NCBI RefSeq assembly: GCF_001652585.1
Contig: NZ_LWLG01000006.1
Location: 60,001-92,000, forward strand
Length of the DNA stretch: 32,000 bases
DNA from: Thermosulfurimonas dismutans
GTDB taxonomy: Bacteria; Desulfobacterota; Thermodesulfobacteria; Thermodesulfobacteriales; Thermodesulfobacteriaceae
Reading direction: 5' to 3'
Shown here: positions 1 to 31,410 of the stretch, piece after piece
How positions within the stretch are numbered: the first letter of the stretch is position 1
How the letters are laid out: each line of letters starts with the position of its first letter
The notes under the pieces: model-generated
What the model was told of the DNA's origin: nothing
What the model saw: the letters and a program-made list of their open reading frames with translations, nothing else
The model's database searches: none
Program-made: the position numbers and the translations under genes

Positions 1-1503
1 GAGCTTGAAAAAGAGCTCCAGGATCGGGGGTTGGTCCTACAAAAAGTTCAGGAAGAAAAAGCAGGTCTTCAGAAAACCCTTAAAGAAACGGAAGAAGCCT
101 TAAAAGGCCGAGTTAAGGCTTTAAAGAAACTTGAGGAAGAGAAGGGACGTCTGATTAGAGAGCTCAAAGGCATTGAACAGAGTCTTACGAGGTTGATGCA
201 GGAGGAGGCTTTTCTGGCGCGGGAAGGTTCGGCAGAGACGGCCAGGCAGGAGGCCCTGGCAGAGGAAAAAGAGAAGATTGAAGCGGAAATCCAGGGCTTA
301 ACCGCAGAACTCGAGGAGATCCTCCGGCAGGAAAAGGAACTCCGAGAGAGGAGACAAAGGTTAAAGAATGAAAGCTCTAAAGAGGAAAAGGCCTTTAAGG
401 AGAAGAATCTTCTCATCTCGGAACTCTCCGGAAGACTGAAGGCCCTTTCCAGGAGGAAGAACGAACTTAATGAAGAACTCCGCAGGACACGGGACAAGTT
501 GCGCAACACCTCCCAACAGGTCAGGCTCCTTGAGGAAGAGCTTCAATTTGTACGGGGAATGATTCGTAAGGAAAAGGAGACCCGGCGGGAAAAGGAAACT
601 GTTCGTGAGGGTTTGCTTCGGGAAAAGAAAGAAGTTGAGGCCGCCCTTTCGGAGGCTAGTAAAAGGCTTTCCGAATTAGAGAGAGAGGGTAAGTCCTTGG
701 AAAAAGATCGGGAGCGTCTAAAAGAGCGGTTACATCGCCTTGAGCTTGACCTGGTAGAGGCCGAAATGAGCCTGGAACATCTCTTGAGAGAGGCCCGTGA
801 GAACCATGAGACTGATCTTGAGGCCTTCGTGGCGGAGGAAAAACCGGCGCTCAAAGATACGAGCGGCATAGAGGAAGAAATCATTAAAGTACGGGAGGAA
901 CTTTCACAGTTTCCGCCGGTCAACCTGGCCGCCGGCGAGGAACTCGAAAAGGCCCGCGAAAGGTTTGAATTTCTTTCCTCTCAGAGAGAAGAGCTCTTGG
1001 CAGCCATAAAAGACCTTGAGGCCGCCTGTCGGCGTCTAGATGAAGAGAGCCGCCGAAAAATCCGCGAGGCCTTGGAGCTTGCCAACCAAAAGTTGAGCGA
1101 GGTCTTTCCCCTTCTTTTTGAAGGCGGACGGGCAGAACTCTATTTCACGGATTCAGATGATCCTCTCCAGGCCGGACTTGACCTCAAGGTAAAGCTTCCG
1201 GGAAAACCGGTAAGACACCTCTCCATGCTCTCCGGAGGCGAAAAGGCCCTCTGCGCCCTGGCGGTACTTTTCGCTTTTTATCTAGTCAAACCAGGACCCT
1301 TCTGCATCCTAGACGAGGTAGACGCCCCTCTGGACGAGGCCAACACCTTAAGGTTCAATGAGCTTCTCAAGCGCCTAAAGGAACACTCCCAGGTCATCCT
1401 GGTAACCCACAATCCCCGCGTCATGGAGATCGCAGACGCCCTTTTCGGAGTAACCATGGAGGAAAAAGGGGTGTCTAAAGTAGTAAGCGTTAAGCTTACC
1501 TAA
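1..1503 (+). CDS. smc: Chromosome segregation protein SMC, C-terminal part (5' end outside window)
   Basis: Frame is open from base 1 (no stop before the TTG at 31). Long E/K/R/L-rich coiled coil, then ABC signature LSGGEKALCALAVLFA, Walker B/D-loop FCILDEVDAPLD and THNPRVM. Stop TAA at 1501-1503. Confidence 0.95.
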   Translation, partial: ELEKELQDRGLVLQKVQEEKAGLQKTLKETEEALKGRVKALKKLEEEKGRLIRELKGIEQSLTRLMQEEAFLAREGSAETARQEALAEEKEKIEAEIQGLTAELEEILRQEKELRERRQRLKNESSKEEKAFKEKNLLISELSGRLKALSRRKNELNEELRRTRDKLRNTSQQVRLLEEELQFVRGMIRKEKETRREKETVREGLLREKKEVEAALSEASKRLSELEREGKSLEKDRERLKERLHRLELDLVEAEMSLEHLLREARENHETDLEAFVAEEKPALKDTSGIEEEIIKVREELSQFPPVNLAAGEELEKARERFEFLSSQREELLAAIKDLEAACRRLDEESRRKIREALELANQKLSEVFPLLFEGGRAELYFTDSDDPLQAGLDLKVKLPGKPVRHLSMLSGGEKALCALAVLFAFYLVKPGPFCILDEVDAPLDEANTLRFNELLKRLKEHSQVILVTHNPRVMEIADALFGVTMEEKGVSKVVSVKLT

Positions 1504-1904
1504 ATGCGAATGCTTCCGTAGCGGGACGAACGCCGGGAACGGAAAATCATAAAGAGCAAGATAAGGACAAAGACCCCTATAAGGGCCATTATGGCCTTGG
1601 CCAGAATCTGGACCTGGATCCTAAGTTCCTCTATTTGAGCGCTCATTTGATTAAGCCGAACTTCAAGAACACGATTAGGAGATAGTTTGTCATTGCTTTT
1701 TAGAAGAGAAAGGATTTCCTCGTTTTGTTGACGAAGGATAGAAACCTGGGAGGACAGCTCGTTGATACGGGAAGTATGTTCCAAAGAATTCTTTTGAAGT
1801 TCCTCGAGCCTCTGCAAAATTTTTTTAGAGGAAGGATCTTGGGCAGCCAACGAAGAGACAACCCCTAACTCCAACACCAAAAACAAACCTAATATCAGTT
1901 TCAT
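1500..1904 (-). CDS. Hypothetical bitopic coiled-coil protein (134 aa): N-terminal signal/TM, heptad-rich middle, C-terminal TM anchor
   Basis: The ATG at 1904 (MKLILGLFLVLELGVVSSLAAQD) begins a hydrophobic signal-like segment. The longer ORF-track start at 2033 would run through the upstream terminator hairpin. Leu-heptad region LQRLEELQKNSLEH...ILRQQNEEILSLL. C-terminal hydrophobic stretch AIMALIGVFVLILLFMIF followed by RSRRSS. No family recognised. Confidence 0.6.
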   Translation of the reverse strand: MKLILGLFLVLELGVVSSLAAQDPSSKKILQRLEELQKNSLEHTSRINELSSQVSILRQQNEEILSLLKSNDKLSPNRVLEVRLNQMSAQIEELRIQVQILAKAIMALIGVFVLILLFMIFRSRRSSRYGSIRI

Positions 1905-1974
1905 AACGGCTTCCCATCCCCGGCCCATATATCTGTTTTTATCAGATTTTCTCAACCATAGCAACAAATCTTTA

Positions 1975-2008
1975 AAAAACAAAAAAAGGGCGGGCTGGTC
2001 GCCCGCCC
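1975..2008 (-). terminator. Rho-independent terminator downstream of the barrel gene
   Basis: On the minus strand: GGGCGGGC-GACCA-GCCCGCCC (perfect 8-bp GC stem, 1988-1995 with 2001-2008), followed by TTTTTTTGTTTTTTAAA. It begins 36 nt after the stop at 2044. Confidence 0.85.
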
Positions 2009-2043
2009 CTGCGGGAGAAGGTGTGGGGTTCAAGCGCTGCGCG

Positions 2044-2463
2044 CTAGAAGCTCCAGGTTATGAACCCGGTAAGGGTATAGGCGTCGCCATCGAGGTCGCC
2101 GTACACATAGGGCTCGTCGTCGTCGAAGTCGGAGTACCAGTAATTAAGGGTAAACGATAGGTTATCCCTGATCTGGTAGGTTCCGGTGACCTCCAGCTCG
2201 AGCATGGAATAGTCGAGGTCGGAGTACTCGTCGGCGTTGTTCATAAGAATAGGATTGTAGGCCCCGTCAAAAGTGCCTCCACCATTGGTCACTGTCACCG
2301 AAGGCATACTGGGACTTTCCATCTCGGCCTCAGCTAGAGTGTAGCTAAGAGTGGCCGAAAGATCCAACTTCTCCATGGGTACGAAGAAAACATTGAGGTA
2401 AAAGACATGGGCCACATTTTCCCAATCGAGCTCATCGTTGGCGGACCGAACCTGGTCCGACAT
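2044..2463 (-). CDS. C-terminal segment of the outer-membrane beta-barrel (same reading frame as 2476-4428, separated by one in-frame TGA)
   Basis: Ends in TGFITWSF-stop, the aromatic-terminal beta-signal typical of outer-membrane barrels. Alternating hydrophobic/aromatic pattern (FTLNYWYSDFDDDEPYVYGD). No signal peptide of its own. 2463 and 4473 are both 0 mod 3, so it is in frame with the upstream ORF. Confidence 0.6.
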   Translation of the reverse strand: MSDQVRSANDELDWENVAHVFYLNVFFVPMEKLDLSATLSYTLAEAEMESPSMPSVTVTNGGGTFDGAYNPILMNNADEYSDLDYSMLELEVTGTYQIRDNLSFTLNYWYSDFDDDEPYVYGDLDGDAYTLTGFITWSF

Positions 2464-2478
2464 GACGTGGCCCCCTCA
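2409..2478 (-). promoter_or_regulatory. In-frame UGA plus immediately downstream nested RNA structure (candidate recoding signal; SECIS-like)
   Basis: UGA is at 2478-2476. An outer 7-bp helix pairs GGGCCAC (2473-2467) with GUGGCCC (2415-2409). An inner hairpin CGGACC-AGGUUC-GGUCCG spans 2459-2442; its apical loop contains GGU and begins 22 nt after the UGA. Confidence 0.3.
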
Positions 2479-4428
2479 CCCGTGGTACACGGCTGCACAG
2501 AGCATACTCGTGTACTCATCCCAGAAGAAGTTGTACCCCACGTTAACACCGAACTTTTCCATGGGGGTATAGGTCACGTTCACGCCACCCATAAAGGTAT
2601 TCTGCTCCCAATTGTAGCCGTCGGTATCGTCTTCGTTTTCTGCATAGCGGTATTTGAGATAGAAATTGGTGTTCAAATTGGCACTCAAGATGTAGTCCAC
2701 CTTAACCCCGAGATCGTGGGCCATCTCAGGCTGATTAGTGGTATCCGCATGCCGACGGCCATACACAGTGTAACTGTACCAGGAATAGTTCCAGGGATTA
2801 TCCGGGTTCGAGTTCACTGGCGTATAATCCGTTCCCCCTACACTAGTGCCTATAGCCTCCTCCGGGCAAGCCGCGTGCTTGAAGGCGTAAGGATCATCTA
2901 CGTAGAGGAAGTTATAGTCCGCCTTCACCTTTAGACCAGCCATAGGCTTCCAGGTGGCGCCCAATTTGAAGAGGTGTTCTGTAGTCTCATCGGTCACATG
3001 ATGTTCTTCGGCGTTCTTACGATCAATGTATTCCAACTCATAACCAAATCTGAAGGCCAACTCCCGGGAATAACGCCAGGAAAGATCTGCGGAGAAGATA
3101 TACTCGTCCTCGTCGTAGGCGGACTTACGATTAAAACTGAAATCCTTGCCATCAATGGTGGGATCAGCGGGGTTGTAGTAAGGGTCGAGCTGAATGTAAA
3201 CATCATCACCGTCCATGGTGTGATACTTGGCCTTGACCGTGAGGCTCATATCCTTGCGAAGACGCCAATGCCAGTTGCCGGAGAAAGCCAGGTAATCCAC
3301 CTCAAGCTCTTCACCGGCATCTCCGTAGAGAAGACCGGAGCCACCCTCAGCTTCATCAGAGGACTCATTGGTGGCCTCGGAGTAAACGAAACCAAGGTTA
3401 AGTATCTGGGAGGAAGAGATATCCCACTTGGCCTTCAGAGTGTGCTGCCACTTCTCGGATTCGGGCGTGCGCGCAAAGGGAAGCTCGCCGTCGCTGTAGT
3501 CGTAGTTCAAGCCCCCCTCTCCCGGAAACTCTCCCGGGGCCAAACCAAAATCAGGCTTGAGGGCCGCCGCAGGATCGGTGGTAGGGGCAGGCCCCTGGGC
3601 ATTGAGATAGAGGTGGCGGGGAACGTCGCTGGAGGTGTTAAAGCTGCGATACATGAGGCTGTAACGCACCGTCCACCGGCCAAGACGGGCTTCAATGTAC
3701 GGAATGTAATCATTGGTGTATTCCTCGATGTACTTGGAGTAAGCCGCTACGTGACAGCTAGAGCACTTGGAGACCGTACGGGCCTGATCCCAACCCTTGC
3801 GCTCCTCCATACGGTGAGTGAAGCCCAGCACCACACCGGGAACGGTAGGCAGACGCAAAATGGCGTCGTTTTTCCAGAGCGAGCGAGTTACCCCGTAATG
3901 GTGGACCTTCTCGTAGCTATCATGCCAAACCGCCGCCGAAGCTCCTTCCCAGACCCCATCATTATCAATATCTTTGACGTCTGGCATAGAAGACGGAGGA
4001 GTAAAGGTACTCGTATATTTTTCGGGATACCAAGTGCCACCCCGATATTCAGTAGCCGTGGCCTGGAGGTTCTCCATTAGGTCTCGGTCGAGCCTGTGAT
4101 AGAACCTATAGTAGTTGCTCTTGAAAGAGAAAAGACGCCGAAAATCGAGGCTTCCGGAATACTCCTGATCGTTGACTTCAATGTAACGACCCTCAAGATT
4201 CAGGAGAAAATCTTTCTCGGCCAGACTGAACTTACCTCCTATATACCAGGAAGAGTCCATGTCCACTTGGCTTTTGTACTCTGCAGCCCGGTTGGGTACA
4301 TCTCCGTAATCGTTTACCGAGGCCCCAAGGTTTACCTCTAGCTCGTAAGACTTCTCATCCTCGGCCCAGGCCTGGCTACATGTCAACACCAGACCTAGAG
4401 CCATCAACAATAAAATCAACCTCCTCAT
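2476..4428 (-). CDS. Outer-membrane beta-barrel protein, N-terminal 650 codons (porin partner of the decaheme cytochrome; MtrB/PioB-like by context), ending at an in-frame TGA
   Basis: AGGAGGAGG sits 7 nt before the ATG at 4428. Signal peptide MRRLILLLMALGLVLTCSQAWA-ED. Rich in Y/W/G/D/N with alternating beta-strand patterns. Lies 54 nt downstream of the cytochrome gene with no intervening terminator. The product ends ...CAAVYHG, without a barrel C-terminal signature, whereas the in-frame continuation supplies one. Confidence 0.75.
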   Translation of the reverse strand: MRRLILLLMALGLVLTCSQAWAEDEKSYELEVNLGASVNDYGDVPNRAAEYKSQVDMDSSWYIGGKFSLAEKDFLLNLEGRYIEVNDQEYSGSLDFRRLFSFKSNYYRFYHRLDRDLMENLQATATEYRGGTWYPEKYTSTFTPPSSMPDVKDIDNDGVWEGASAAVWHDSYEKVHHYGVTRSLWKNDAILRLPTVPGVVLGFTHRMEERKGWDQARTVSKCSSCHVAAYSKYIEEYTNDYIPYIEARLGRWTVRYSLMYRSFNTSSDVPRHLYLNAQGPAPTTDPAAALKPDFGLAPGEFPGEGGLNYDYSDGELPFARTPESEKWQHTLKAKWDISSSQILNLGFVYSEATNESSDEAEGGSGLLYGDAGEELEVDYLAFSGNWHWRLRKDMSLTVKAKYHTMDGDDVYIQLDPYYNPADPTIDGKDFSFNRKSAYDEDEYIFSADLSWRYSRELAFRFGYELEYIDRKNAEEHHVTDETTEHLFKLGATWKPMAGLKVKADYNFLYVDDPYAFKHAACPEEAIGTSVGGTDYTPVNSNPDNPWNYSWYSYTVYGRRHADTTNQPEMAHDLGVKVDYILSANLNTNFYLKYRYAENEDDTDGYNWEQNTFMGGVNVTYTPMEKFGVNVGYNFFWDEYTSMLCAAVYHG

Positions 4429-4482
4429 CCTAGCACCTCCTCCTATTTTTAAACTTTGGTTATTTCCCTGCATTTCAAACCC

Positions 4483-5541
4483 CTATCGGGTAAGCTTCTT
4501 ACCCTGACCAGGAATGGTCTGAGACGGAAAGTCCGAACCGTGCACAGAAGGATGGCACTGCGTACACTTGGTAAGAAAGCTCTTCTGCCACCCCTCAGCT
4601 GTAGAGTGAATGTTAGGCGCCGAAGGATAACGCCAATCCTGGCCCACCGGATAACCTGCAGGATTAAAAGGATGGACCGTATCCTTATCGTTATACCTAG
4701 TGGCATGGAAGTGGACCTCATGACACTGCATGCACAGGAAGGGCTCGTTCTGCTTCAGCAGGTTGTTGGCCACCGCACCGTGGGGATCGTGGCAGATGGT
4801 GCAGTCCTCCACCACGGGCTCGTGTTCGAACACAAAAGGCCCCTGGTAGCGGGTATGACAGGTAAGACAAAGATCGTTCAACCGTTCCTCCGTTCTAAGC
4901 ATGCCCGGGATGGGGTTACCCGTGCCATGAGGATTGTGACAGTCGGAACAGCCTAGGTGACCCTCCTTAACCGGGTGGTGAGAGGGGAAGAAGAGTTTGG
5001 ACTGCACATCCCGGTGACAGGAAGCGCAGAGTTCAAGCTCGGCTTTGGCCAGCAGAGCCTCCCGCTTGTTCCCGTGCACTTTATGACAGTCGGAACAGGC
5101 CACATCGTTTTCAAAGTGGGCAGAGAAGGCAAAGTGCATGGTCTCGCCGCCGGCGTGACAGGTCATGCAGACGGCACTGGCCTCCTCGCCTTCGAAGCCT
5201 TCCTCCCCGAAACGAATGATGGCTGAAAGTCCCTTTTCCGTATCGTCCTCCTGCATGGCCTCCACGTGCTTGGACCCCGGCCCATGACAGCCCTCACAAC
5301 CCTTGGCGTAGCCAGGAGCCTCATAATCCGCCAGTCTCAGGTGAACATTGGTCTTGGCATCCGCCGCGTAATCCTCGTGACATTCTAGACAGGTTTCCGC
5401 ACCCACATACTCTGCTCCCGGAGCCACTACCGGAGGTTTGAGGACCTGGGCCCGCTTCTCAGCTGCTTCCTTGGTACACGCTCCCAAAAAGAGAAGAAAT
5501 ACACCTAACAAGCCCGCCATCCATAGCTTTACCCTATCCAT
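4483..5541 (-). CDS. Decaheme c-type cytochrome, lipoprotein-type signal (MtrA/DmsE-like)
   Basis: Ten CXXCH motifs: CLECH, CEGCH, CMTCH, CSDCH, CASCH, CSDCH, CLTCH, CTICH, CMQCH, CTQCH. GPFVFEHEPV and a C-terminal CHPSVHGS resemble the MtrA/DmsE family. Start chosen at the ATG at 5541, which has GGAGGAGG upstream. Signal peptide ends in lipobox LGAC. Confidence 0.9.
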   Translation of the reverse strand: MDRVKLWMAGLLGVFLLFLGACTKEAAEKRAQVLKPPVVAPGAEYVGAETCLECHEDYAADAKTNVHLRLADYEAPGYAKGCEGCHGPGSKHVEAMQEDDTEKGLSAIIRFGEEGFEGEEASAVCMTCHAGGETMHFAFSAHFENDVACSDCHKVHGNKREALLAKAELELCASCHRDVQSKLFFPSHHPVKEGHLGCSDCHNPHGTGNPIPGMLRTEERLNDLCLTCHTRYQGPFVFEHEPVVEDCTICHDPHGAVANNLLKQNEPFLCMQCHEVHFHATRYNDKDTVHPFNPAGYPVGQDWRYPSAPNIHSTAEGWQKSFLTKCTQCHPSVHGSDFPSQTIPGQGKKLTR

Positions 5542-5572
5542 ACCAACCTCCTCCATAGATAATATCGCTAGA

Positions 5573-5601
5573 ATTTTGGCTAACACCAAGGCAAAGGTCA
5601 A
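5573..5601 (-). promoter_or_regulatory. Candidate sigma-70 promoter of the cytochrome/porin operon
   Basis: Minus strand: TTGACC (5601-5596), 17-nt spacer, CAAAAT (5578-5573). The predicted start gives a roughly 25-nt leader containing the GGAGGAGG SD. Confidence 0.35.
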
Positions 5602-8113: not shown

Positions 8114-9892
8114 TTATTCTGTGATCAAGATATAACGCACGTAACGAGGAGAGGGCGGGGACTCGGGATCGGCAAAAGCGTATTCCTCCTCGAAACGGGA
8201 GGCCACAAACCTTAGAAAACTCTCGGTGAGTTCCGGGGCGTAGTAAAAGGTCTGTTGGGCGAGGCGCCTGAAGTTATCCAGAAGTTCCCGGAAAAGCTCT
8301 TCGGAAAACCGGTTTCTTTCCGAGTTAGAACGAACCTCCAGAAACCTTTCCAGAACTTCAGGCCACCTTTTCGCTGGAATAGGAGCAAACTTAAACTCCT
8401 GGGAAAGGACCCAGTTGGCCAATCCCGTAAGGATTAAGGCCGACCAGGTAATGTCCGAAGGTTCAAGGAAGTTGGTTTTTTGGGTAGCCATTTCCGCCAC
8501 CCAAAGAGGCGGGATGCCAAAGGCCTTCTGAATAAGAACGGCCCAGTAACCGACTTCCTCAATGATCCTCTCCACCTGCCTTACCTCGGAAAGCTCACGG
8601 AACCAGCGGTATTCCTCTGCGGTTCCGGCCTTATCCGGCACAAAAAACTTGATGCGGTTGGCGTCCCGTACCGTAACTCCTTTGAGATAGGAGGCATAGG
8701 GTTCATCAAGGTGTCTCAGGACACGGACATCCAGGTCCTCCTGAGAGCTGATTTCGCGAGCCTTTTTGCGAAGGCTTACGATCAGGGTGTGTGCTAGCCG
8801 GAAGATGTCCTCTAGGAAGTAAGTTTCAAGAATTCGTCGCCCAGCCTCTGGATCTGGCCCAGCTAGATATTCCAAACCGATATTGAGATACCCCAAGACC
8901 TTATTTAAGGAATCCTCCACCTGGGCAATCTCGTCAATACTCACATGATCCACGATAAGGACCTTGTTGGTGATCCAGGCGAGCTCCCTTTTCAGGCGAT
9001 CGAGCTGATGGGGATCCGTAATCCGAGAAAGGGCCTCGGAAAACCTCTCGGCCCCAGGATAATAAAGCGCCGGCACAAAACCAGGCGGGCTCTCTCCGGT
9101 TTCTTCTACTCGTCCGGGGAGGTAGCGCGGATCTATCCGACGAAGATGATTCTTGACTATTGGAGCGTAAACGTCCAAGGCCTCAAAGTAATCCGGAATC
9201 CCATGATCGGCCAGCCGCCCCCGACGCCAACGATAGGCCATCTCCTCTACCTGGGAGGGAAGCTCCCAGATGATGGCCTCCATAAGGTTGTAGTAATAGT
9301 TCTCATCCATGTCCCGGATGATCTCAATGATGCGCCGGAAATAAAACTCAAGCTTTTGTTTTCTGAACTCCACGAAATAGACTTCATCTAAAGTATAGGG
9401 TGGGAGCCAGTCGCGGGCCTCGGTAAGATCTACATCGTCCGGGCGCTTCACTACCCGCACGAACCTTTGCATAATGGCTACCAGAAAATCGAAGTCCGCC
9501 ACCCGAAGCCACTCGGCCACTTTGTCCTCAGAGGTCTCAAAAAGGAGAACTAGCCAGGCGGTAAACCTTTCAGGAGCAAGGCGATCCTTCCGCCAGGCAT
9601 CTATATCAAAAAGGAACTGAATTTGGGGCCCTTTGGCGTAGCTCAGGAGATCCACCGCTTCTTCCGTAGAGACGGCTTTGAGAGTGAGGAAAAGCTCCTG
9701 GGGAGGTAGGTTTTTTACCAGCCCTTCGGCCAGAGGCGAAAGCGTGATGACTCGGGCCCGGAGTTCCCAGGGAGTAGCAAGCACAAGATCCATTTGCTCA
9801 CGAAAACTGAGCTCCGTAAGAAGCTTTTCGGCCTCCTCCGCCGGCCGGGAGAGCAGGTCCTGATAGGTAACCGGAAGTTTACGTTCCGCCAT
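8114..9892 (-). CDS. Conserved-looking hypothetical protein, 592 aa, probably all-helical and soluble
   Basis: Long uninterrupted ORF. Its start overlaps the yraN stop by 14 nt, suggesting translational coupling. No TM segment, signal peptide or catalytic motif that I can recognise. Confidence 0.8.
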   Translation of the reverse strand: MAERKLPVTYQDLLSRPAEEAEKLLTELSFREQMDLVLATPWELRARVITLSPLAEGLVKNLPPQELFLTLKAVSTEEAVDLLSYAKGPQIQFLFDIDAWRKDRLAPERFTAWLVLLFETSEDKVAEWLRVADFDFLVAIMQRFVRVVKRPDDVDLTEARDWLPPYTLDEVYFVEFRKQKLEFYFRRIIEIIRDMDENYYYNLMEAIIWELPSQVEEMAYRWRRGRLADHGIPDYFEALDVYAPIVKNHLRRIDPRYLPGRVEETGESPPGFVPALYYPGAERFSEALSRITDPHQLDRLKRELAWITNKVLIVDHVSIDEIAQVEDSLNKVLGYLNIGLEYLAGPDPEAGRRILETYFLEDIFRLAHTLIVSLRKKAREISSQEDLDVRVLRHLDEPYASYLKGVTVRDANRIKFFVPDKAGTAEEYRWFRELSEVRQVERIIEEVGYWAVLIQKAFGIPPLWVAEMATQKTNFLEPSDITWSALILTGLANWVLSQEFKFAPIPAKRWPEVLERFLEVRSNSERNRFSEELFRELLDNFRRLAQQTFYYAPELTESFLRFVASRFEEEYAFADPESPPSPRYVRYILITE

Positions 9893-11224: not shown

Positions 11225-12523
11225 TTATCTTCCCTCCCCTAACAAGCGATCAATTATAATGCTAGCCGCTGATCTTACCGAAAGATGGTTATACTCGTCA
11301 AGTCTTCCGGAAATAGGTAAAAGGAAATAATGGCTCTTGTCAAGGACCTCATCGGCCAGTCCCCAGGCCGTGCCGAATAACACCAAAACCGGTTTCCCGG
11401 AGAAAATAAGACCTCGGGCCTCTTCATAAGAAAAGGTCTTTCGCAGGGGCCTGGCATCGGTGGCCAGGATGACGGGATCGTGGCCTTCGATCTTTCGGAT
11501 CTCTTCAATAACCTCATTCAAAGAATGAACCGGACGCACCAGGCTCAGGGCCTCGCGACGGTCGGGATTGTGCTTAGCCCCAGGACCTGAAAGCCAGAAC
11601 TCAAGCATCTCCTCCATGATAGCCCGCTGGTCAGATAGGGGCTGCACGATAAAATAAGCCTTAAGGCCGTAAGTTCTCGCCACCCGGGCAATGTCGTGGA
11701 GATCAAGATTGGTGAAGGAGGAGGCGATCTTGCGGCCTTCCTTGTTCAGAACCGGATAGTGAAGCAGAGCCGCGTAAACTTTGGCCTTACGAGCCTTCTC
11801 CCGTTTTAGCTTCTCTAAGAAGGCTCGGTCTTCATCGGTAAGCGAAGCCTTGGCCAAAAGATCAGGACGTTTCTCAAAGGTTATTCGCAGGGATTCCTCT
11901 CGTCTGAAACGCTCAATACGGGCGTGGTCGCCAGAGAGCAAAACCTCTGGAACCGTGTAGCCCATAAAATCCCGAGGTCGGGTGTACTGAGGATGTTTCA
12001 GGAGGCCCTCGGCAAAGGAATCTCGCTTTACGGAATCCTCACACCCTACCACCCCGGGCACAAGACGTGCGACGGTCTCGATCAAGACCAGAGCTGCCGC
12101 CTCACCGCCGAAAAGGACATAGTCTCCGATAGAAATCTCGTCATCTACGAAATACTGCCTTATGCGTTCATCTATCCCCTCGTAACGGCCACAGATTAAG
12201 ATTAAATGTTTCTTTGCAAGTAGCTCGCGGGCCACCTCCTGATTGAAAAGCCTTCCCTGAGGAGAGAGATAAACTACCCAGGGTTCGGGAGACTCTTTTT
12301 TCAAGGCTTCGATGGCACGATAGAGGGGTTCGGGTTTAAGCAGCATACCCTCCCCACCACCAAACGGCTTATCATCCACCGTGCGGTGCTTGTCGGTAGC
12401 AAAGTCCCGTAGATTATGGAGACGGACCTTGAGCAACCCTTTCTGGATAGCCTTTCCCAAGAGACCAACCTTCAGGGGAGACTCAAAATATTCCGGGAAA
12501 ATGGTTATGAGATCGAAAACCAT
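11225..12523 (-). CDS. trmD: tRNA (guanine37-N1)-methyltransferase TrmD fused to a C-terminal domain of about 185 aa resembling a second predicted SAM-dependent RNA methyltransferase
   Basis: Residues 1-240 are a complete TrmD ([36 protein letters not shown]). After the linker EKARKAK, a second domain follows ([30 protein letters not shown]...[10 protein letters not shown]...[17 protein letters not shown]). Confidence 0.9.
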
Positions 12524-16097: not shown

Positions 16098-16126
16098 TAT
16101 TATAATGAAAGGATGAAGTTTCCCAA
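16077..16126. promoter_or_regulatory. Overlapping divergent promoter-like boxes in the 15-bp antiporter/nrdJ intergenic region
   Basis: Plus strand: TATAAT at 16101-16106, only 6 nt before the nrdJ ATG at 16113, with a weak -35 TAGAAA at 16077-16082. Minus strand: TATAAT at 16104-16099 with TTGGGA at 16126-16121 (16-nt spacer), 1 nt before ATG 16097 and 7 nt before ATG 16091. Confidence 0.35.
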
Positions 16127-17912
16127 GACGGACCTCCCTTTAAGGGAGCCTGCCCTTCTGGTCCTTGCCTACCGATACTTGGTAAAGGACGAAAACGGCG
16201 AAGTAGTGGAGACCCCTGAGGAGATGTTCTGGCGGGTGGCCCGGACAGTAGCCGAGGCCGAAAGTTTCTTCGGAGAAGATCCGGAACCCTGGGCCGAAAA
16301 ATTTTATCACCTCATGGCCTCTCTGGATTTCCTCCCCAACTCCCCTACCCTCATGAACGCCGGTCTTCCCCTAGGACAGCTCTCGGCCTGTTTCGTGCTA
16401 CCGATAGAGGATTCCCTGGCGTCCATTTTCGAAACTCTGAAAAACGCGGCCCTCATTCACAAATCCGGCGGTGGAACCGGCTTTTCTTTCTCTCGTATAA
16501 GACCCAAGGGCGATGTGGTTAGGAGCACTCAGGGAGTAGCCAGCGGGCCGGTTTCCTTCATGAGGGTCTTTAACGCCGCCACCGAGGCCATCAAACAGGG
16601 CGGCAAGCGCCGCGGGGCCAACATGGGCATCCTGCGGATAGATCATCCAGACATTGAGGATTTCATCCTGGTAAAGCGAGATTTTAAAGAACTCACCAAC
16701 TTCAACCTCTCCGTGGCCTTAACGGACGCCTTCATGGAAGCCCTTAGGAAAGACGATTACTTCTCTCTTATAAATCCCAGAACCCAAAAGGAAGTTCGCA
16801 GAGTTCGAGCGCGGAGGCTATTTGACCTCCTAGTAGAAAGTGCCTGGCTTACCGGAGATCCGGGGGTTATCTTCATCGACACCATCAATCGAGACAACCC
16901 TACCCCCCTGCTCAGCGAAATCGAAAGCACCAATCCGTGTAGCGAACAACCACTGCTTCCCTACGAATCTTGTAACCTCGGGTCTATCAATCTCTCCCGC
17001 TTCGTTAAAGAAGGACAGGTGGATTACGTACGTCTCAAAGAAGTCGTACACCTGGCCGTACGGTTTCTCGATAACGTCATCGAAGTGAATCGATTTCCCT
17101 TGCCTCAAATCGCCAGGATCACCCGGCTCAATCGCAAGATAGGCCTTGGAGTAATGGGCTTTGCGGACCTACTCATTAGGTTAGAAATCCCATACACTTC
17201 TAGAGAGGCCGTAAGGCTGGCGGAAGAAATCATGGCCTTTATCGAGCGGGAATCCGTAGCCGCAAGCATGGAGTTGGGCCAAAAACGGGGAAGCTTTCCC
17301 GCCTATGCCGGAAGCGTATGGGACAAACCCGAAACCCCTCACATGCGGAACGCCACCACCACTACCATCGCCCCTACCGGGACTCTCTCCCTCATCGCCG
17401 GGACCTCCTCGGGCATCGAACCCCTCTTTGCCCTGATCTACCGCCGAAGGGCCTTTGATGGAGCCGAGTGGACCGAAGTCCATGATCTCTTCTTGGAGGC
17501 CCTTGCCCATTACGGCCTTTCTTCCCAAGATATCGTTTCTGAAATCCTAGAAAAAGGGAGTCTGCGCAAGATTTCCGGCGTACCGGAAAAACTTAAGAAA
17601 CTCTTCGTAACAGCCTTAGAGATCCCGCCGGAGCAACACCTAGCCGTCCAGGCGGCCTTCCAGCGTCACACCCACAACGCAGTCTCGAAGACCATAAATC
17701 TTCCGGAAAACGCCACCAAGGAGGAAGTTGCACACATTTACCTCAAAGCTTACGAGATGGGACTTAAGGGGGTCACAGTATATCGCTATGGCTCTCGTCC
17801 AGAGCAGGTCCTGAGACTACCCAAGGATAAGTGTCCGGACTGTGGGAACACGCTTAAAAACCGAGAATATTGTCTCCTCTGTGAGAATTGCGGTTATTCC
17901 GAGTGCGGCTAG
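16113..17912 (+). CDS. nrdJ: Adenosylcobalamin-dependent (class II) ribonucleotide reductase
   Basis: TNPCSEQPLLPYESCNLGSINL active-site region, SGGGTGFSFS, and a C-terminal Cys-rich tail CPDCGNTLKNREYCLLCENCGYSECG. Confidence 0.95.
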   Translation: MKFPKTDLPLREPALLVLAYRYLVKDENGEVVETPEEMFWRVARTVAEAESFFGEDPEPWAEKFYHLMASLDFLPNSPTLMNAGLPLGQLSACFVLPIEDSLASIFETLKNAALIHKSGGGTGFSFSRIRPKGDVVRSTQGVASGPVSFMRVFNAATEAIKQGGKRRGANMGILRIDHPDIEDFILVKRDFKELTNFNLSVALTDAFMEALRKDDYFSLINPRTQKEVRRVRARRLFDLLVESAWLTGDPGVIFIDTINRDNPTPLLSEIESTNPCSEQPLLPYESCNLGSINLSRFVKEGQVDYVRLKEVVHLAVRFLDNVIEVNRFPLPQIARITRLNRKIGLGVMGFADLLIRLEIPYTSREAVRLAEEIMAFIERESVAASMELGQKRGSFPAYAGSVWDKPETPHMRNATTTTIAPTGTLSLIAGTSSGIEPLFALIYRRRAFDGAEWTEVHDLFLEALAHYGLSSQDIVSEILEKGSLRKISGVPEKLKKLFVTALEIPPEQHLAVQAAFQRHTHNAVSKTINLPENATKEEVAHIYLKAYEMGLKGVTVYRYGSRPEQVLRLPKDKCPDCGNTLKNREYCLLCENCGYSECG

Positions 17913-29240: not shown

Positions 29241-30071
29241 ATGATCGAGGAATTCTTCTTTAAACTGGCCTTCATCCTTTATCTAATTTCAACAGTGGGT
29301 TTCTTTATTTATTTCTATTCTCTAAAACCTGAAGCCTTGAAAGGGGCCAGGCTCGTCCTTCTAGGAGGATTTTTCTGTCACACCCTGAACATTGTTCTCC
29401 GGTTAAAGATCTTGAAAGCCCCTCCGGTAGCCTCTTTTCACGAAAGCAGTTCTTTTCTGGCCTGGGCGGTGGTAGGGGTCTATTTCTTTTTCGTCTATCG
29501 CGGTCCCAAAGTCTATACTCTGGGGACTTTTCTTCTCCCTTTAGTGCTTCTTCTCATGATAGCTTCAGCCATATCTCCTTCGGAGATCACACCTTTGCCC
29601 CCGGTACTCCAAAGTCTATGGCTCCCGATACACGCAATCATCTCCCTTTTTTCCTACGCCTTTTTCCTCACGGCTGCGGTAGCAGGCTTCATGTACCTTC
29701 TCCAAGAAAGGCAGGTCAAACACAAACATCTGGGAGGCATCTTCAGACGCCTGCCTCCGCTTGAGTCTCTCGACCGTATAAACGAGCTCTCTCTGAAATA
29801 CGGTTTCCCTCTTCTTACTCTAGGGATCATCACCGGAGCCCTCTGGGCGGAAAAGGCCTGGGGAACCTATTGGAGCTGGGACCCCAAGGAGACCTGGTCC
29901 CTCATCCTCTGGTTCATTTACGCGGCCCTGCTTCACGAGCGTCTCATCGTAGGCTGGCGGGGAAGAAGGGCCGCCATGATGGCCCTTTTGGGATTTTTTG
30001 TCTGGATAATCAGCTTTTTTGTGGTAAATCTTTTTTTACCGGGGCTTCACAGCTATGGAAAATGGTCCTAA
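29241..30071 (+). CDS. ccsA: Cytochrome c assembly protein family member (CcsA/ResC/HemX-like)
   Basis: Polytopic membrane protein with heme-handling WWD-type motif WGTYWSWDPKETWSLILW and flanking His residues. Confidence 0.85.
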   Translation: MIEEFFFKLAFILYLISTVGFFIYFYSLKPEALKGARLVLLGGFFCHTLNIVLRLKILKAPPVASFHESSSFLAWAVVGVYFFFVYRGPKVYTLGTFLLPLVLLLMIASAISPSEITPLPPVLQSLWLPIHAIISLFSYAFFLTAAVAGFMYLLQERQVKHKHLGGIFRRLPPLESLDRINELSLKYGFPLLTLGIITGALWAEKAWGTYWSWDPKETWSLILWFIYAALLHERLIVGWRGRRAAMMALLGFFVWIISFFVVNLFLPGLHSYGKWS

Positions 30072-31410
30072 GGAGAAAATACTCATTCTTGGCCTCAATC
30101 ACCGGACGGCTCCGGTGGAGGTCCGGGAGTGTTTCGCCCTCAAAAACGTTTCTGAACATCCTTTAGCCATTCTAAAACGGGAACTCCCCGAAGCTGAAGA
30201 GGTACTGTTTCTTTCAACCTGCAACCGGGTAGAGTTTATTTTAGTTTCAAAGACTTCGGACCAAACCCTAAAGAGCCTGAAAGAGATCCTCGTCAGGACC
30301 ACCGGGCTGGAGGTAGCCCGGTTTGAGGATCACCTTTACTTCTACGAGAACCGAGATGCGGTAAGGCATCTTTTCCGGGTAGCTTCAGGACTAGATTCTC
30401 TGGTTCTGGGAGAACCTCAGATCCTAGGCCAGGTAAAAGAAGCCTATCGGGAAGCAGTGGAATACCGCACCACGGGCCCCATTTTGAATCGGCTTCTACA
30501 CAAGACCTTTTCGGTAGCCAAACGGGTGCGTACCGAGACCGGCATCGGGTCCCATGCGGTCTCGGTAAGCTATGCGGCGGTGGAACTGGCCAAAAAGATC
30601 TTCGGTTCCCTCAAAGGGCGTACGGCGCTCTTGGTGGGAGCGGGCGAAATGGCCGAGCTTGCGGCTCAGCACCTTATCTCTGCGGGGGTCTCCCGGATGC
30701 TGGTGGCTAACCGTACCCTTTCCCGGGCCATTGAGCTTGCCGAACGTTTTCGCGGAAAGGCTTATGGCCTTGAGGAACTTCCGGAATGTCTCCTTGAAAC
30801 CGACATTGTAATCACTTCCACCGGAGCCCCGGGTTATGTGATCACCCGAGATATGGTGAAACCCCTTTTGCGCAAAAGGCGACTGCGGCCGCTCTTTTTC
30901 ATAGATATCGCCGTGCCCCGAGATGTAGAACCCGCAGTCAACGAGCTCGAAAACATCTACGTCTTTGACATCGACGATCTCAAACAGGTGGTAGAGGAAA
31001 ACCTAGGTCGGCGAAAGCAGGAAGCCCTGCGAGCCGAGAAGATCGTGGAGGAAGAGGTCCTCAAATTCGAAAGGTGGCTACGAGAACTTGCGGTCTATCC
31101 TACCATCAAGGCCCTGCGGGAGAAGGCCGAAGCCATCCGAAGACGGGAGCTTGAAAAGACCCTCGGCCGTCTGGACCTTTCACCGGAAGAGAAAGAAGCC
31201 ATCGAGACTTTGACGGAATCCTTAATCCAAAAGCTTCTTCACGATCCCATTTCCTACCTAAAGTCTGGCTATCACCGAGAAGGGCGTGAAGCCATTGTGA
31301 CCGTACGCCGGATCTTCAATCTGGATCAGGAAGAGCCGGGCTCCTCGCCTACCTTTGAGGAGCTCAGTGGGGCTGAGGAGGCCACGGAAATCCCTAAAAA
31401 ATGGCATTAA
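30055..31410 (+). CDS. hemA: Glutamyl-tRNA reductase
   Basis: [14 protein letters not shown], catalytic [14 protein letters not shown] site LVGAGEMAE. Overlaps the ccsA-like gene by 17 nt. Confidence 0.95.

What the first reader, a model, noticed from the sequence alone, without database searches (positions are those of the whole stretch)
2409..2478. Single in-frame TGA splits the barrel gene just 5' of a nested RNA structure: recoding (selenocysteine or readthrough) versus fresh pseudogene
ORFs 2476-4428 and 2044-2463 are in the same frame and separated only by TGA (2478-2476) plus four sense codons (reads ...CAAVYHG-TGA-GGHVMSDQ...). Only the downstream piece carries the aromatic C-terminal beta-signal (FITWSF) needed for barrel assembly, and it has no signal peptide, so neither piece looks functional alone. 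Two nt after the UGA, GGGCCAC pairs with GUGGCCC 52 nt downstream. Inside that helix sits a 6-bp hairpin CGGACC/GGUCCG whose loop AGGUUC contains GGU, starting 22 nt after the UGA. That geometry is reminiscent of bacterial SECIS elements such as E. coli fdhF, which has a GGUC apical loop. TGA is a genuine stop elsewhere in the window (the tolC-like gene and ffh), so wholesale codon reassignment is excluded. A selenocysteine or conditionally read-through outer-membrane electron conduit would be new. A sequencing error or recent nonsense mutation is the dull alternative.
Basis: partly seen in the sequence, partly recalled or inferred. Interest (0 to 1): 0.7.

Follow-up and report, generated by a model that had tools for sequence, protein, structure and literature searches.

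The report
Selenocysteine codon in outer-membrane barrel gene
The in-frame TGA is very probably a selenocysteine codon with its own mRNA hairpin, in a Thermosulfurimonas dismutans outer-membrane barrel gene; NCBI already curates this family as a selenoprotein, so the finding is real but not new.

Summary
One minus-strand reading frame runs from ATG 4428 to TAG 2044 and is interrupted only by TGA 2478-2476.

It is not a pseudogene. The aligned codon is TGA in 18 related loci, Cys (TGT/TGC) in 13 distant ones and Gly in two. The 137-153 codons after it stay open everywhere. Of the 150 best family representatives, 117 end exactly at this residue.

A 6-bp hairpin (2459-2442, loop AGGUUC) meets all four published bacterial SECIS criteria. 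It is conserved with compensatory changes (99% paired against 69% in shuffles). It is absent from the Cys forms and decayed in both Gly forms.

The protein matches NCBIfam NF041027, "GSU2204 family CXXCH-containing (seleno)protein", with the model ending at the residue before the TGA. A GSU2203-type decaheme cytochrome gene lies directly upstream in nearly every locus with enough upstream DNA. A homologue model is a 26-strand MtrB-like barrel with five strands after the Sec site.

So the selenocysteine reading is supported, but the family is already listed as a selenoprotein. The selA/B/C/D genes of this genome and selenium incorporation could not be tested. GenBank still splits the gene in two.

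The parts
2044..4428 (-). Complete coding sequence of the GSU2204-family barrel (seleno)protein. It has 794 sense codons including the UGA, and ends at TAG 2046-2044. GenBank annotates it as two genes: OAQ20822.1 (650 aa) and OAQ20821.1/TDIS_1110 (139 aa).
   Evidence: frame. (NF041027, 520.3 bits, cutoff 350, model 2-580/580 ending at residue 650). (Pfam MtrB_PioB match 314-772 spans the TGA). (100% identity to the T. dismutans entries).
2476..2478 (-). UGA read as selenocysteine (residue 651).
   Evidence: the aligned codon is TGA in 18 loci, TGT/TGC in 13 and GGA in 1. GGT in L035; 117 of the 150 best cluster representatives end at exactly this position.
2442..2459 (-). SECIS core hairpin. 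The 5' arm CGGACC is at 2459-2454, the apical loop AGGUUC at 2453-2448 and the 3' arm GGUCCG at 2447-2442. RNAfold adds two more pairs, U-A and G-C, across single-base bulges, giving 2462-2439.
   Evidence: fold. (published bSECIS criteria, all met). (99% paired, 5 of 6 pairs compensatory). (a model built only from L014-L019 finds this site at 28.5 bits as the only significant hit in the window).
2497..2499 (-). Cys644 codon (TGT), seven residues before Sec, giving a C-x6-U motif.
   Evidence: Cys is present at this position in 16 of 18 TGA loci and in the window. It is Ala in all 13 Cys-form loci.
3751..3765 (-). The family's invariant CXXCH motif (C222-S-S-C225-H226), a putative covalent haem c attachment site.
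   Evidence: C222, C225 and H226 are invariant across 19 and 80 sequences. Haem binding itself was not tested.
4363..4428 (-). Signal peptide MRRLILLLMALGLVLTCSQAWA, with a likely cleavage site after AWA.
   Evidence: Read from the sequence. It aligns with the N-terminal hydrophobic leaders of the homologues. This is an inference; no predictor was run.
4436..4444 (-). Shine-Dalgarno-like AGGAGGAGG, 7 nt before ATG 4428. It favours 4428 over the upstream ATG 4473 as the start.
   Evidence: sequence; the database protein P0001 also starts at this ATG.
4483..5601 (-). Partner gene directly upstream: a GSU2203-family decahaem c-type cytochrome (DmsE/MtrA-like) with ten CXXCH motifs.
   Evidence: NF041028, 490.3 bits, cutoff 325; ten CXXCH motifs; a homologue lies directly upstream of the barrel gene, same strand, in nearly every locus with enough upstream DNA, in both Sec and Cys forms (L030, a weak partial barrel match, is the exception).
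1986..2010 (-). Intrinsic terminator: a 10-bp stem with 8 G-C pairs, then a T-run, 34 nt after the TAG stop. No terminator-like site lies between the TGA and the TAG on this strand.

Best explanation
The window comes from Thermosulfurimonas dismutans. Positions 4428-2044 (minus strand) are one gene for a GSU2204-family outer-membrane beta-barrel selenoprotein.

Proposed decoding (inferred from the known bacterial mechanism): when the ribosome reaches UGA 2478-2476, the hairpin 2459-2442 is bound by SelB carrying Sec-tRNA(Sec). Its loop AGGUUC starts 22 nt after the UGA. Selenocysteine is inserted as residue 651, and translation continues for 143 more codons to TAG 2044.

The product is a precursor of about 794 residues with a signal peptide. 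It folds into a 26-strand MtrB-like barrel. The last five strands, including the C-terminal aromatic signal FITWSF, exist only if the UGA is decoded.

Together with the decahaem cytochrome encoded directly upstream, it would form a two-gene porin-cytochrome module.

The family's invariant CXXCH (residues 222-226) and the C644-x6-U651 motif sit at the tips of the two longest beta-hairpins, strands 7/8 and 21/22. They lie on the same face of the barrel, the face that carries all the long loops. By the usual outer-membrane-protein rule that face is extracellular.

Shown here: one frame, conserved TGA with Cys alternation, a conserved covarying hairpin, family membership, the conserved partner gene, and the fold of a homologue. 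Inferred: SelB-dependent Sec insertion in this organism, haem attachment, orientation, and any redox or catalytic role of Sec.
For: 1. One frame interrupted by a single TGA. A terminator follows only the second stop.
2. NF041027 'GSU2204 family CXXCH-containing (seleno)protein' scores 520.3 bits (cutoff 350), and the model ends at the residue before the TGA. Pfam MtrB_PioB spans the TGA.
3. The aligned codon is TGA in 18 loci from Thermodesulfobacteriota, Deltaproteobacteria and Nitrospirae MAGs, and Cys in 13 loci, most labelled Aminicenantes or Acidobacteriota.
4. The downstream frame stays open for 137-153 codons in all 32 loci, most ending in an aromatic residue. It is 32-78% identical to the window, about as conserved as the upstream part.
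5. 15 of the 16 database homologues that reach the site stop there. In a search of 1.84 billion representatives, 117 of the best 150 end exactly there.
6. The hairpin meets the four bSECIS criteria quoted in PMC13188914. The loop is 6 nt (allowed 3-9) and the stem 6 bp (4-16). G is at loop position 2, followed by G. The spacing is 22 nt (16-37) and the MFE is -11.6 kcal/mol (limit -7.5).
7. Hairpin conservation: the stem is 5-8 bp in 17 of 18 TGA loci and 1-4 bp in the Cys forms (Mann-Whitney p = 1.6e-6). Each sequence's own arms give a median of 6 bp, swapped arms a median of 3 bp. 99% of cells pair against 69% in shuffles (0/500), and 5 of 6 pairs carry compensatory changes. A model trained only on L014-L019 finds the window site at E about 1e-5 and nothing at the Cys-form sites.
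8. In two separate lineages the codon is Gly (L012 GGA, L035 GGT), and both have lost the hairpin.
9. Use of Sec in this lineage. The contig of the closest orthologue (L001) carries a tRNA-Sec gene 370 nt upstream of the operon (ARAGORN; Rfam RF01852, 82.9 bits). PMC13510729 uses a T. dismutans gene (TDIS_RS01570) as a Sec-type MccSep representative with a SECIS-like element.
10. An AlphaFold model of the Cys-form homologue P0020 (pLDDT 87.6, pTM 0.80) has 26 strands, and its best PDB match is MtrB, 6r2q_B (E = 8.5e-21, TM 0.70/0.77). The Sec-equivalent Cys578 lies between strands 21 and 22.
Against: - No selA, selB, selC or selD lies in the 32-kb window. The rest of the T. dismutans genome could not be searched with these tools.
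- There is no experimental evidence of selenium in this protein, or in any member of the family, in the papers I could find.
- On this sequence alone the hairpin is no more stable than shuffles.
- Rfam reports no SECIS family at the site.
- The Sec-versus-Cys statistics are not phylogenetically independent, and the covariation alignment was fitted to the structure.
- The structural statements rest on a model of a homologue only about 25% identical. The two hairpins are 14 strands apart, roughly on opposite walls of the barrel.
Confidence: 0.93

Rival explanations
1. Recent nonsense mutation, pseudogene or sequencing error: the TGA simply ends a broken gene.
For: GenBank annotates two separate genes, of 650 aa and 139 aa. 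The hairpin on this sequence alone is not significant.
Against: The same TGA is found in 18 independent assemblies. 117 of the 150 best cluster representatives end at this residue. The downstream frame is intact and conserved in all 32 loci. The RNA hairpin covaries.
Confidence: 0.01
2. Sec-independent read-through or programmed termination. The UGA would be suppressed by a near-cognate tRNA (Trp, Cys or Arg), or would mostly terminate, so that a truncated 650-residue protein is the main functional product.
For: UGA is the leakiest stop codon (general knowledge). Sec machinery was not shown for this genome. Gly substitutes at the site in two lineages, so some members tolerate a non-Cys, non-Sec residue.
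Against: The Cys/TGA alternation at one column is the standard selenoprotein signature. A hairpin meeting all the bSECIS criteria is kept by compensatory changes and is lost when the TGA is lost. A 21-strand fragment without the C-terminal aromatic signal could not close a barrel. The orthologue contig carries a tRNA-Sec gene.
Confidence: 0.04
3. Split gene: the two pieces are translated separately, with the second starting at ATG 2463, and they assemble into one barrel.
For: An ATG lies five codons after the TGA in the window and in its closest relatives, in the motif GGHVMS.
Against: That Met is not conserved: L005 has AGHVFS and L006-L013 have AGAVGS. The second piece has no signal peptide. 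The full-length Cys forms are single polypeptides.
Confidence: 0.01

Closest known systems
NCBIfam NF041027, GSU2204 family CXXCH-containing (seleno)protein (with its partner NF041028, GSU2203 family decahaem cytochrome)
   Same: The score is well above the curated cutoff, and the model ends at the residue before the UGA. The invariant CXXCH is present. The family has Sec or Cys at this site. The decahaem gene is adjacent. NCBI gives the same name to homologues from Thermodesulfatator, Aminicenantes and Acidobacteriota.
   Different: Nothing structural differs. GenBank's T. dismutans record predates or ignores the model and splits the gene. No experimental work on any member turned up. The only data found were that GSU2203 and GSU2204 are induced about 2.4-2.7-fold by haematite in Geobacter (PMC4070692).
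MtrB of the Shewanella MtrCAB complex (PDB 6R2Q chain B); Pfam PF11854 MtrB_PioB
   Same: A 26-strand barrel fold (Foldseek E = 8.5e-21, TM 0.70/0.77 for the homologue model). Pfam PF11854 scores above its gathering threshold. The partner is a periplasmic decahaem cytochrome of the DmsE/MtrA kind.
   Different: TIGR03509 (the MtrB/PioB subfamily) scores far below its cutoff, 36 against 240 bits. Sequence identity to MtrB is about 11%. No MtrC-like surface cytochrome gene is adjacent. This family has its own CXXCH and a Sec/Cys site. From my own knowledge, not tested here, MtrB is not known to have these.
Bacterial SECIS elements (consensus model of Zhang and Gladyshev 2005, as summarised in PMC13188914; archetype E. 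coli fdhF)
   Same: The element lies inside the coding region immediately 3' of the UGA. It has a small apical loop with G at position 2 followed by G or U, 22-nt spacing and a stable upper stem.
   Different: There is no sequence similarity to fdhF beyond the loop GGU. SelB binding was not tested. Rfam has no model that detects it.
MccSep / ExtKL (GSU2937-2936), the pentahaem selenoenzyme for polysulfide reduction (PMC13510729)
   Same: It is a c-type haem protein with one Sec and a functionally paired Cys, found in the same organisms. T. dismutans carries a Sec-type homologue.
   Different: MccSep is a soluble periplasmic tetramer unrelated in fold. Its Sec/Cys/haem active site is shown by crystallography, whereas here any proximity of Sec to a haem is conjecture.

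Membership tests
GSU2204 family CXXCH-containing (seleno)protein (NCBIfam NF041027) | HMM score above the curated cutoff over the full model | tested here: met
   520.3 bits against a cutoff of 350, E = 7.5e-156, model positions 2-580 of 580 on residues 10-650.
GSU2204 family CXXCH-containing (seleno)protein (NCBIfam NF041027) | Conserved CXXCH motif | tested here: met
   C222, C225 and H226 are invariant in alignments of 19 and 80 sequences.
GSU2204 family CXXCH-containing (seleno)protein (NCBIfam NF041027) | Sec (UGA) or Cys at the position just after the end of the 'part 1' model, followed by a conserved C-terminal region | tested here: met
   TGA in the window and 18 loci, Cys in 13. The C-terminal 137-153 residues are conserved in all of them.
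GSU2204 family CXXCH-containing (seleno)protein (NCBIfam NF041027) | Adjacent GSU2203-family decahaem cytochrome gene | tested here: met
   NF041028 scores 490.3 bits against a cutoff of 325. A homologue lies directly upstream of the barrel gene, same strand, in nearly every locus with enough upstream DNA; L030, a weak partial barrel match, is the exception.
Bacterial selenoprotein gene (SelB/SECIS-dependent UGA recoding) | In-frame UGA aligned with Cys in homologues, and conserved as UGA in orthologues | tested here: met
Bacterial selenoprotein gene (SelB/SECIS-dependent UGA recoding) | bSECIS hairpin: loop of 3-9 nt, stem of 4-16 bp, G in the first two loop positions, 16-37 nt from the UGA to the loop, MFE of -7.5 kcal/mol or lower | tested here: met
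   Loop 6 nt (AGGUUC), stem 6 bp, G at position 2, spacing 22 nt, MFE -11.6 kcal/mol. The criteria are taken from PMC13188914.
Bacterial selenoprotein gene (SelB/SECIS-dependent UGA recoding) | Hairpin conserved by compensatory change and tied to the presence of the UGA | tested here: met
   (99% paired, 5 of 6 pairs compensatory, 0 of 500 shuffles reach the observed value). (absent in the Cys forms, decayed in both Gly forms)..
Bacterial selenoprotein gene (SelB/SECIS-dependent UGA recoding) | selA, selB, selC (tRNA-Sec) and selD present in the same genome | not testable with these tools
   None is in the 32-kb window. Only indirect evidence is available. There is a tRNA-Sec gene on the contig of the closest orthologue. 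There is also a published Sec-type MccSep gene in T. dismutans (PMC13510729).
Bacterial selenoprotein gene (SelB/SECIS-dependent UGA recoding) | Selenium demonstrated in the polypeptide | not testable with these tools
   No experimental paper on this family was found.
MtrB/PioB decahaem-associated outer membrane protein (TIGR03509 subfamily) | HMM score above the curated cutoff | tested here: not met
   36.3 bits against a cutoff of 240. Only the broader Pfam PF11854 is met, at 58.5 bits against 23. It shares the MtrB fold and works like MtrB, but it is not a member of that subfamily.
MtrB/PioB decahaem-associated outer membrane protein (TIGR03509 subfamily) | 26-strand barrel fold | tested here: met
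   Tested on the Cys-form homologue P0020, not on the window protein itself: 26 strands, best PDB match 6r2q_B with TM 0.70/0.77.

The most novel reading that the evidence does not exclude
The barrel itself may be a selenoenzyme rather than a passive sheath. A haem c would be attached to the invariant CXXCH at the tip of hairpin 7/8. The C644-x6-U651 motif sits at the tip of hairpin 21/22. Together they would form a haem/Cys/Sec redox site on the outer face, analogous to the site shown in periplasmic MccSep. The two-gene module would then reduce an extracellular or insoluble substrate directly, without an MtrC-type surface cytochrome. Candidate substrates in this sulfur disproportionator are elemental sulfur, polysulfide and Fe(III) minerals. 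The evidence does not exclude this. Both motifs lie on the same, long-loop face, and the upstream Cys tracks with Sec (present in 16 of 18 Sec-form loci and in none of the 13 Cys forms). The hairpins start on roughly opposite barrel walls, and no distance could be measured.
Probability: 0.2. Interest if true: 0.8.

Novelty: already known. Interest (0 to 1): 0.3.

Why it matters
For annotation, the GenBank record of T. dismutans splits this gene into a 650-aa "MtrB" and a 139-aa hypothetical protein. These should be merged into one selenoprotein. Most database entries of the family are truncated in the same way: 117 of the best 150 cluster representatives.

For biology, the family is known only from computation. 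It would place selenocysteine in an outer-membrane barrel, paired with a decahaem cytochrome. The organisms that carry it live on sulfur and metal redox chemistry. The role of Sec there is an open and testable question, made more pointed by the recent demonstration of a haem/Cys/Sec polysulfide reductase (MccSep) in the same organisms. None of this is a discovery of the present scan.

Tried and rejected
- Rfam, at both gathering and permissive thresholds, found no SECIS or other family at the site.
- Folding this sequence alone gives z-scores of -0.74 and -0.15. I therefore did not use thermodynamic stability as evidence.
I modelled the Cys-form homologue P0020 instead. Coordinates are not exposed, so no Sec-to-CXXCH distance could be measured.
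- The look-up of encoding contigs had no record for P0001, so I could not read beyond the window in this genome.
- The review cites Zhang and Gladyshev 2008 for the family. I found no mention of a cytochrome or outer-membrane family in that paper's main text, so I cannot say who first described it.
- The T. dismutans genome papers do not mention selenium or this gene. The 2016 paper lists TDIS_1112 among 'periplasmic multiheme cytochromes', and by locus-tag order this is probably the decahaem gene here (an inference).
- A search for papers naming Thermosulfurimonas together with selenophosphate found nothing.
- The covariance model missed L004, whose stem is only 5 bp with a different loop.

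Full report
**What is in the sequence.** On the minus strand one reading frame runs from ATG 4428 to TAG 2046-2044. An AGGAGGAGG Shine-Dalgarno-like sequence precedes the ATG. The only interruption is TGA at 2478-2476, where the translation reads ...SMLCAAVYHG*GGHVMSDQ...GFITWSF*. A strong intrinsic terminator follows the TAG at 2010-1986: 10 bp with 8 G-C pairs, then a T-run. No terminator-like site lies between the TGA and the TAG on that strand. TGA is a normal stop for rimM, ffh, a Ca/Na antiporter gene and the tolC-like gene in the same window.

**What the gene is.** With a placeholder at the TGA, the protein matches NCBIfam NF041027, "GSU2204 family CXXCH-containing (seleno)protein". The score is 520.3 bits against a cutoff of 350. 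The model is named "Se_pt_1", and its last position falls on the residue just before the TGA. Pfam MtrB_PioB matches residues 314-772, across the TGA. The gene directly upstream (5601-4483) matches NF041028, the GSU2203-family decahaem cytochrome, and has ten CXXCH motifs.

The N-terminal 650 residues are 100% identical to a Thermosulfurimonas dismutans protein that GenBank calls "Cytochrome c family protein MtrB" (OAQ20822.1). The 139-residue ORF after the TGA is TDIS_1110, a "hypothetical protein". So the source is T. dismutans, and its GenBank record splits the gene.

**Comparative test of the TGA.** A scan of one genome per species returned 34 loci. I mapped the codon aligned to the window's TGA in each.
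- It is TGA in 18 loci, from Thermodesulfobacteriota, "Deltaproteobacteria" and Nitrospirae MAGs, at 30-73% identity.
- It is TGT or TGC (Cys) in 13 distant loci, most labelled Aminicenantes or Acidobacteriota.
- It is GGA (Gly) in one locus, L012. A further full-length homologue, P0009/L035, has GGT (Gly).

In all 32 loci that could be mapped, the frame after the site stays open for 137-153 codons, most ending in an aromatic residue. The downstream part is about as conserved as the upstream part. Among database homologues, 15 of the 16 that reach the site end precisely there. A profile search of 1.84 billion cluster representatives gave 1299 hits. Of the best 150, 117 end exactly at the profile position before the site, at their own last residue, and 15 span it.

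This is the standard Sec/Cys signature. It excludes a strain-specific nonsense mutation or a sequencing error. The Met five codons after the TGA is not conserved (AGHVFS, AGAVGS), which argues against separate translation of the second piece.

**The RNA element.** On this sequence alone the region is no more stable than dinucleotide shuffles (z = -0.74 for 91 nt, -0.15 for 44 nt). The case rests on comparison.

In 17 of 18 TGA loci and in the window, an uninterrupted 5-8-bp stem has its 5' arm fixed at nucleotides 20-25, counted from the U of UGA. The loop begins A-G-(G/U)-U. The 13 Cys forms manage only 1-4 bp at that position (Mann-Whitney p = 1.6e-6 for stem length and 4.6e-6 for local MFE; the samples are not phylogenetically independent).

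The stems differ between lineages (CGGACC/GGUCCG, CCUCCC/GGGAGG, GCUCCC/GGGAGC, CGGACGA/UCGUCCG) and encode different peptides (SDQVRS, SSQLGG, and so on). When the 3' arm is swapped between sequences with different 5' arms, the median stem drops from 6 to 3 bp.

I built a covariance model from the six most distant TGA loci only (L014-L019) and searched 383 kb with it. It finds the window site (2434-2478, 28.5 bits, E about 1e-5) as the only significant hit in the window. It also finds the TGA site in 17 loci, and nothing at the Cys-form sites. On the resulting alignment, 99% of cells pair, against 69.2 +/- 3.8% in shuffles (0/500). Five of six pairs carry compensatory changes (5/500). The covariation score is 0.672 against 0.154 (0/500), and the slid controls pair at 35-64%. 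That alignment is fitted to the structure, which inflates the pairing somewhat.

Both lineages in which the codon is Gly have lost the hairpin.

The window hairpin meets all four constraints of the published bacterial SECIS model: loop 3-9 nt, stem 4-16 bp, G in the first two loop positions, 16-37 nt spacing, and MFE of -7.5 kcal/mol or lower (PMC13188914; values). It pairs in 63% of cells, 90 of 500 shuffles do as well, and there is no covariation. Rfam has no family that detects the element.

**Sec machinery.** The window holds no tRNA gene and no selA, selB or selD. I could not read the rest of the genome. Two pieces of indirect evidence exist. First, the contig of the closest orthologue (L001, 73-78% identical) carries a tRNA-Sec gene 370 nt upstream of the decahaem gene (ARAGORN; Rfam RF01852, 82.9 bits against 47). 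Second, a 2026 paper on the pentahaem selenoenzyme MccSep uses T. dismutans TDIS_RS01570 as a Sec-type representative with a SECIS-like element (PMC13510729). This remains the main untested defining feature.

**Structure and likely mode of action.** The tool would not accept the window protein with a placeholder at the Sec position. I therefore modelled the Cys-form homologue P0020 with an 81-sequence alignment that includes both window pieces. The model has pLDDT 87.6, pTM 0.80 and 26 strands. Its best PDB match is MtrB of the Mtr complex (6r2q_B, E = 8.5e-21, TM 0.70/0.77).

The Sec-equivalent Cys578 sits in the turn between strands 21 and 22, so five strands follow it. A protein terminated at the TGA could not close the barrel, and it would lack the C-terminal aromatic signal.

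The invariant CXXCH sits in the turn between strands 7 and 8. These four strands are the longest in the model, at 22-26 residues. Fourteen strands separate the two turns, so they lie on the same face. All the long loops (13-44 residues) are on that face, and the turns on the opposite face are 6 residues or fewer. By the usual outer-membrane-protein rule that face is extracellular; this is my inference. Being 14 strands apart, the two hairpins start on roughly opposite walls of the barrel. Whether their tips meet could not be measured.

A Cys seven residues before Sec is present in 16 of 18 Sec-form loci and in none of the 13 Cys-form loci. This hints at a Cys-Sec pair.

The decahaem gene lies directly upstream of the barrel gene, on the same strand, in nearly every locus with enough upstream DNA, in both Sec and Cys forms. 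No MtrC-like gene is adjacent in the window. The best-supported picture is a two-component porin-cytochrome module whose barrel carries its own putative haem site and a Sec/Cys redox residue. In Geobacter, GSU2203 and GSU2204 are induced about 2.4-2.7-fold by haematite (PMC4070692).

**Comparison with what is known, and novelty.** The gene is a member of an already curated selenoprotein family. It meets every defining feature of NF041027 that I could test. [quoted passage not shown] NCBI already gives that name to homologues.

It has the MtrB fold but is not in the MtrB/PioB TIGR03509 subfamily (36 bits against 240).

I found no experimental study of any member. So the selenocysteine reading is very probably right (0.93), but it is not new.

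What remains open is what Sec does in an outer-membrane barrel. The most novel reading not excluded is a surface-exposed haem/Cys/Sec catalytic site analogous to that of MccSep. I put that at about 0.2.

Noticed in passing
window 2044-2463 and 2476-4428 (minus strand): GenBank annotates the selenoprotein gene as two separate proteins: OAQ20822.1, 'Cytochrome c family protein MtrB' (650 aa), and OAQ20821.1/TDIS_1110, 'hypothetical protein' (139 aa). Most database entries of the family are truncated in the same way: 117 of the best 150 cluster representatives.
   Followed up: yes
L001:1393-1878: In the closest orthologue's contig, a cluster of tRNA-Ser, tRNA-Ser, small SRP RNA and tRNA-Sec lies immediately upstream of the decahaem-barrel operon, with tRNA-Sec 370 nt from the decahaem gene. 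The window has no tRNA gene near its copy.
   Followed up: partly
window 2497-2499 (Cys644) relative to 2476-2478: A Cys seven residues before the site (C-x6-U) is present in 16 of 18 Sec-form loci and in the window. It is Ala in all 13 Cys-form loci. L016 and L017 have Tyr there. This suggests a Cys-Sec pair found in most Sec forms.
   Followed up: partly
window 11225-12523 (minus strand): The trmD ORF is 432 aa. TrmD covers only residues 1-232, and the C-terminal 200 residues match Pfam PF09936, SAM-dependent RNA methyltransferase (242 bits). It therefore looks like a fusion of two RNA methyltransferases.
   Followed up: partly
window 16113-17912 (plus strand): The B12-dependent ribonucleotide reductase ORF is 599 aa and matches only positions 8-577 of the 759-position model NF006417. 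birA starts on the other strand right after it. It is a short form lacking the model's C-terminal part.
   Followed up: no
window 29241-31410 (plus strand): ccsB (system II cytochrome c biogenesis) and hemA (glutamyl-tRNA reductase) overlap end to end, about 25 kb from the decahaem-barrel operon. They are relevant to haem attachment for both proteins, but linkage was not examined.
   Followed up: no
window 8114-9892 (minus strand): A 592-aa protein matches DUF6178 over its full length (559 bits) and has no NCBIfam hit. Its function is unknown.
   Followed up: no
window 1500-2033 (minus strand): A 177-aa ORF directly downstream of the barrel gene overlaps the terminator at its listed TTG start. 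Its C-terminal half has homologues downstream of the barrel gene in L003 and L018 only (45-47% identity). It gives only weak coiled-coil or lipoprotein-like matches.
   Followed up: partly
P0120, P0125, P0162, P0177, P0191, P0207, P0225, P0231 (family-wide): More distant full-length family members carry neither Sec nor Cys at the site. P0120 and P0009 have Gly, and others have diverged in the loop. P0167 and P0182 have Cys in a different context (VGCFSE). The redox residue is therefore not universal in the wider MtrB_PioB-like family.
   Followed up: partly
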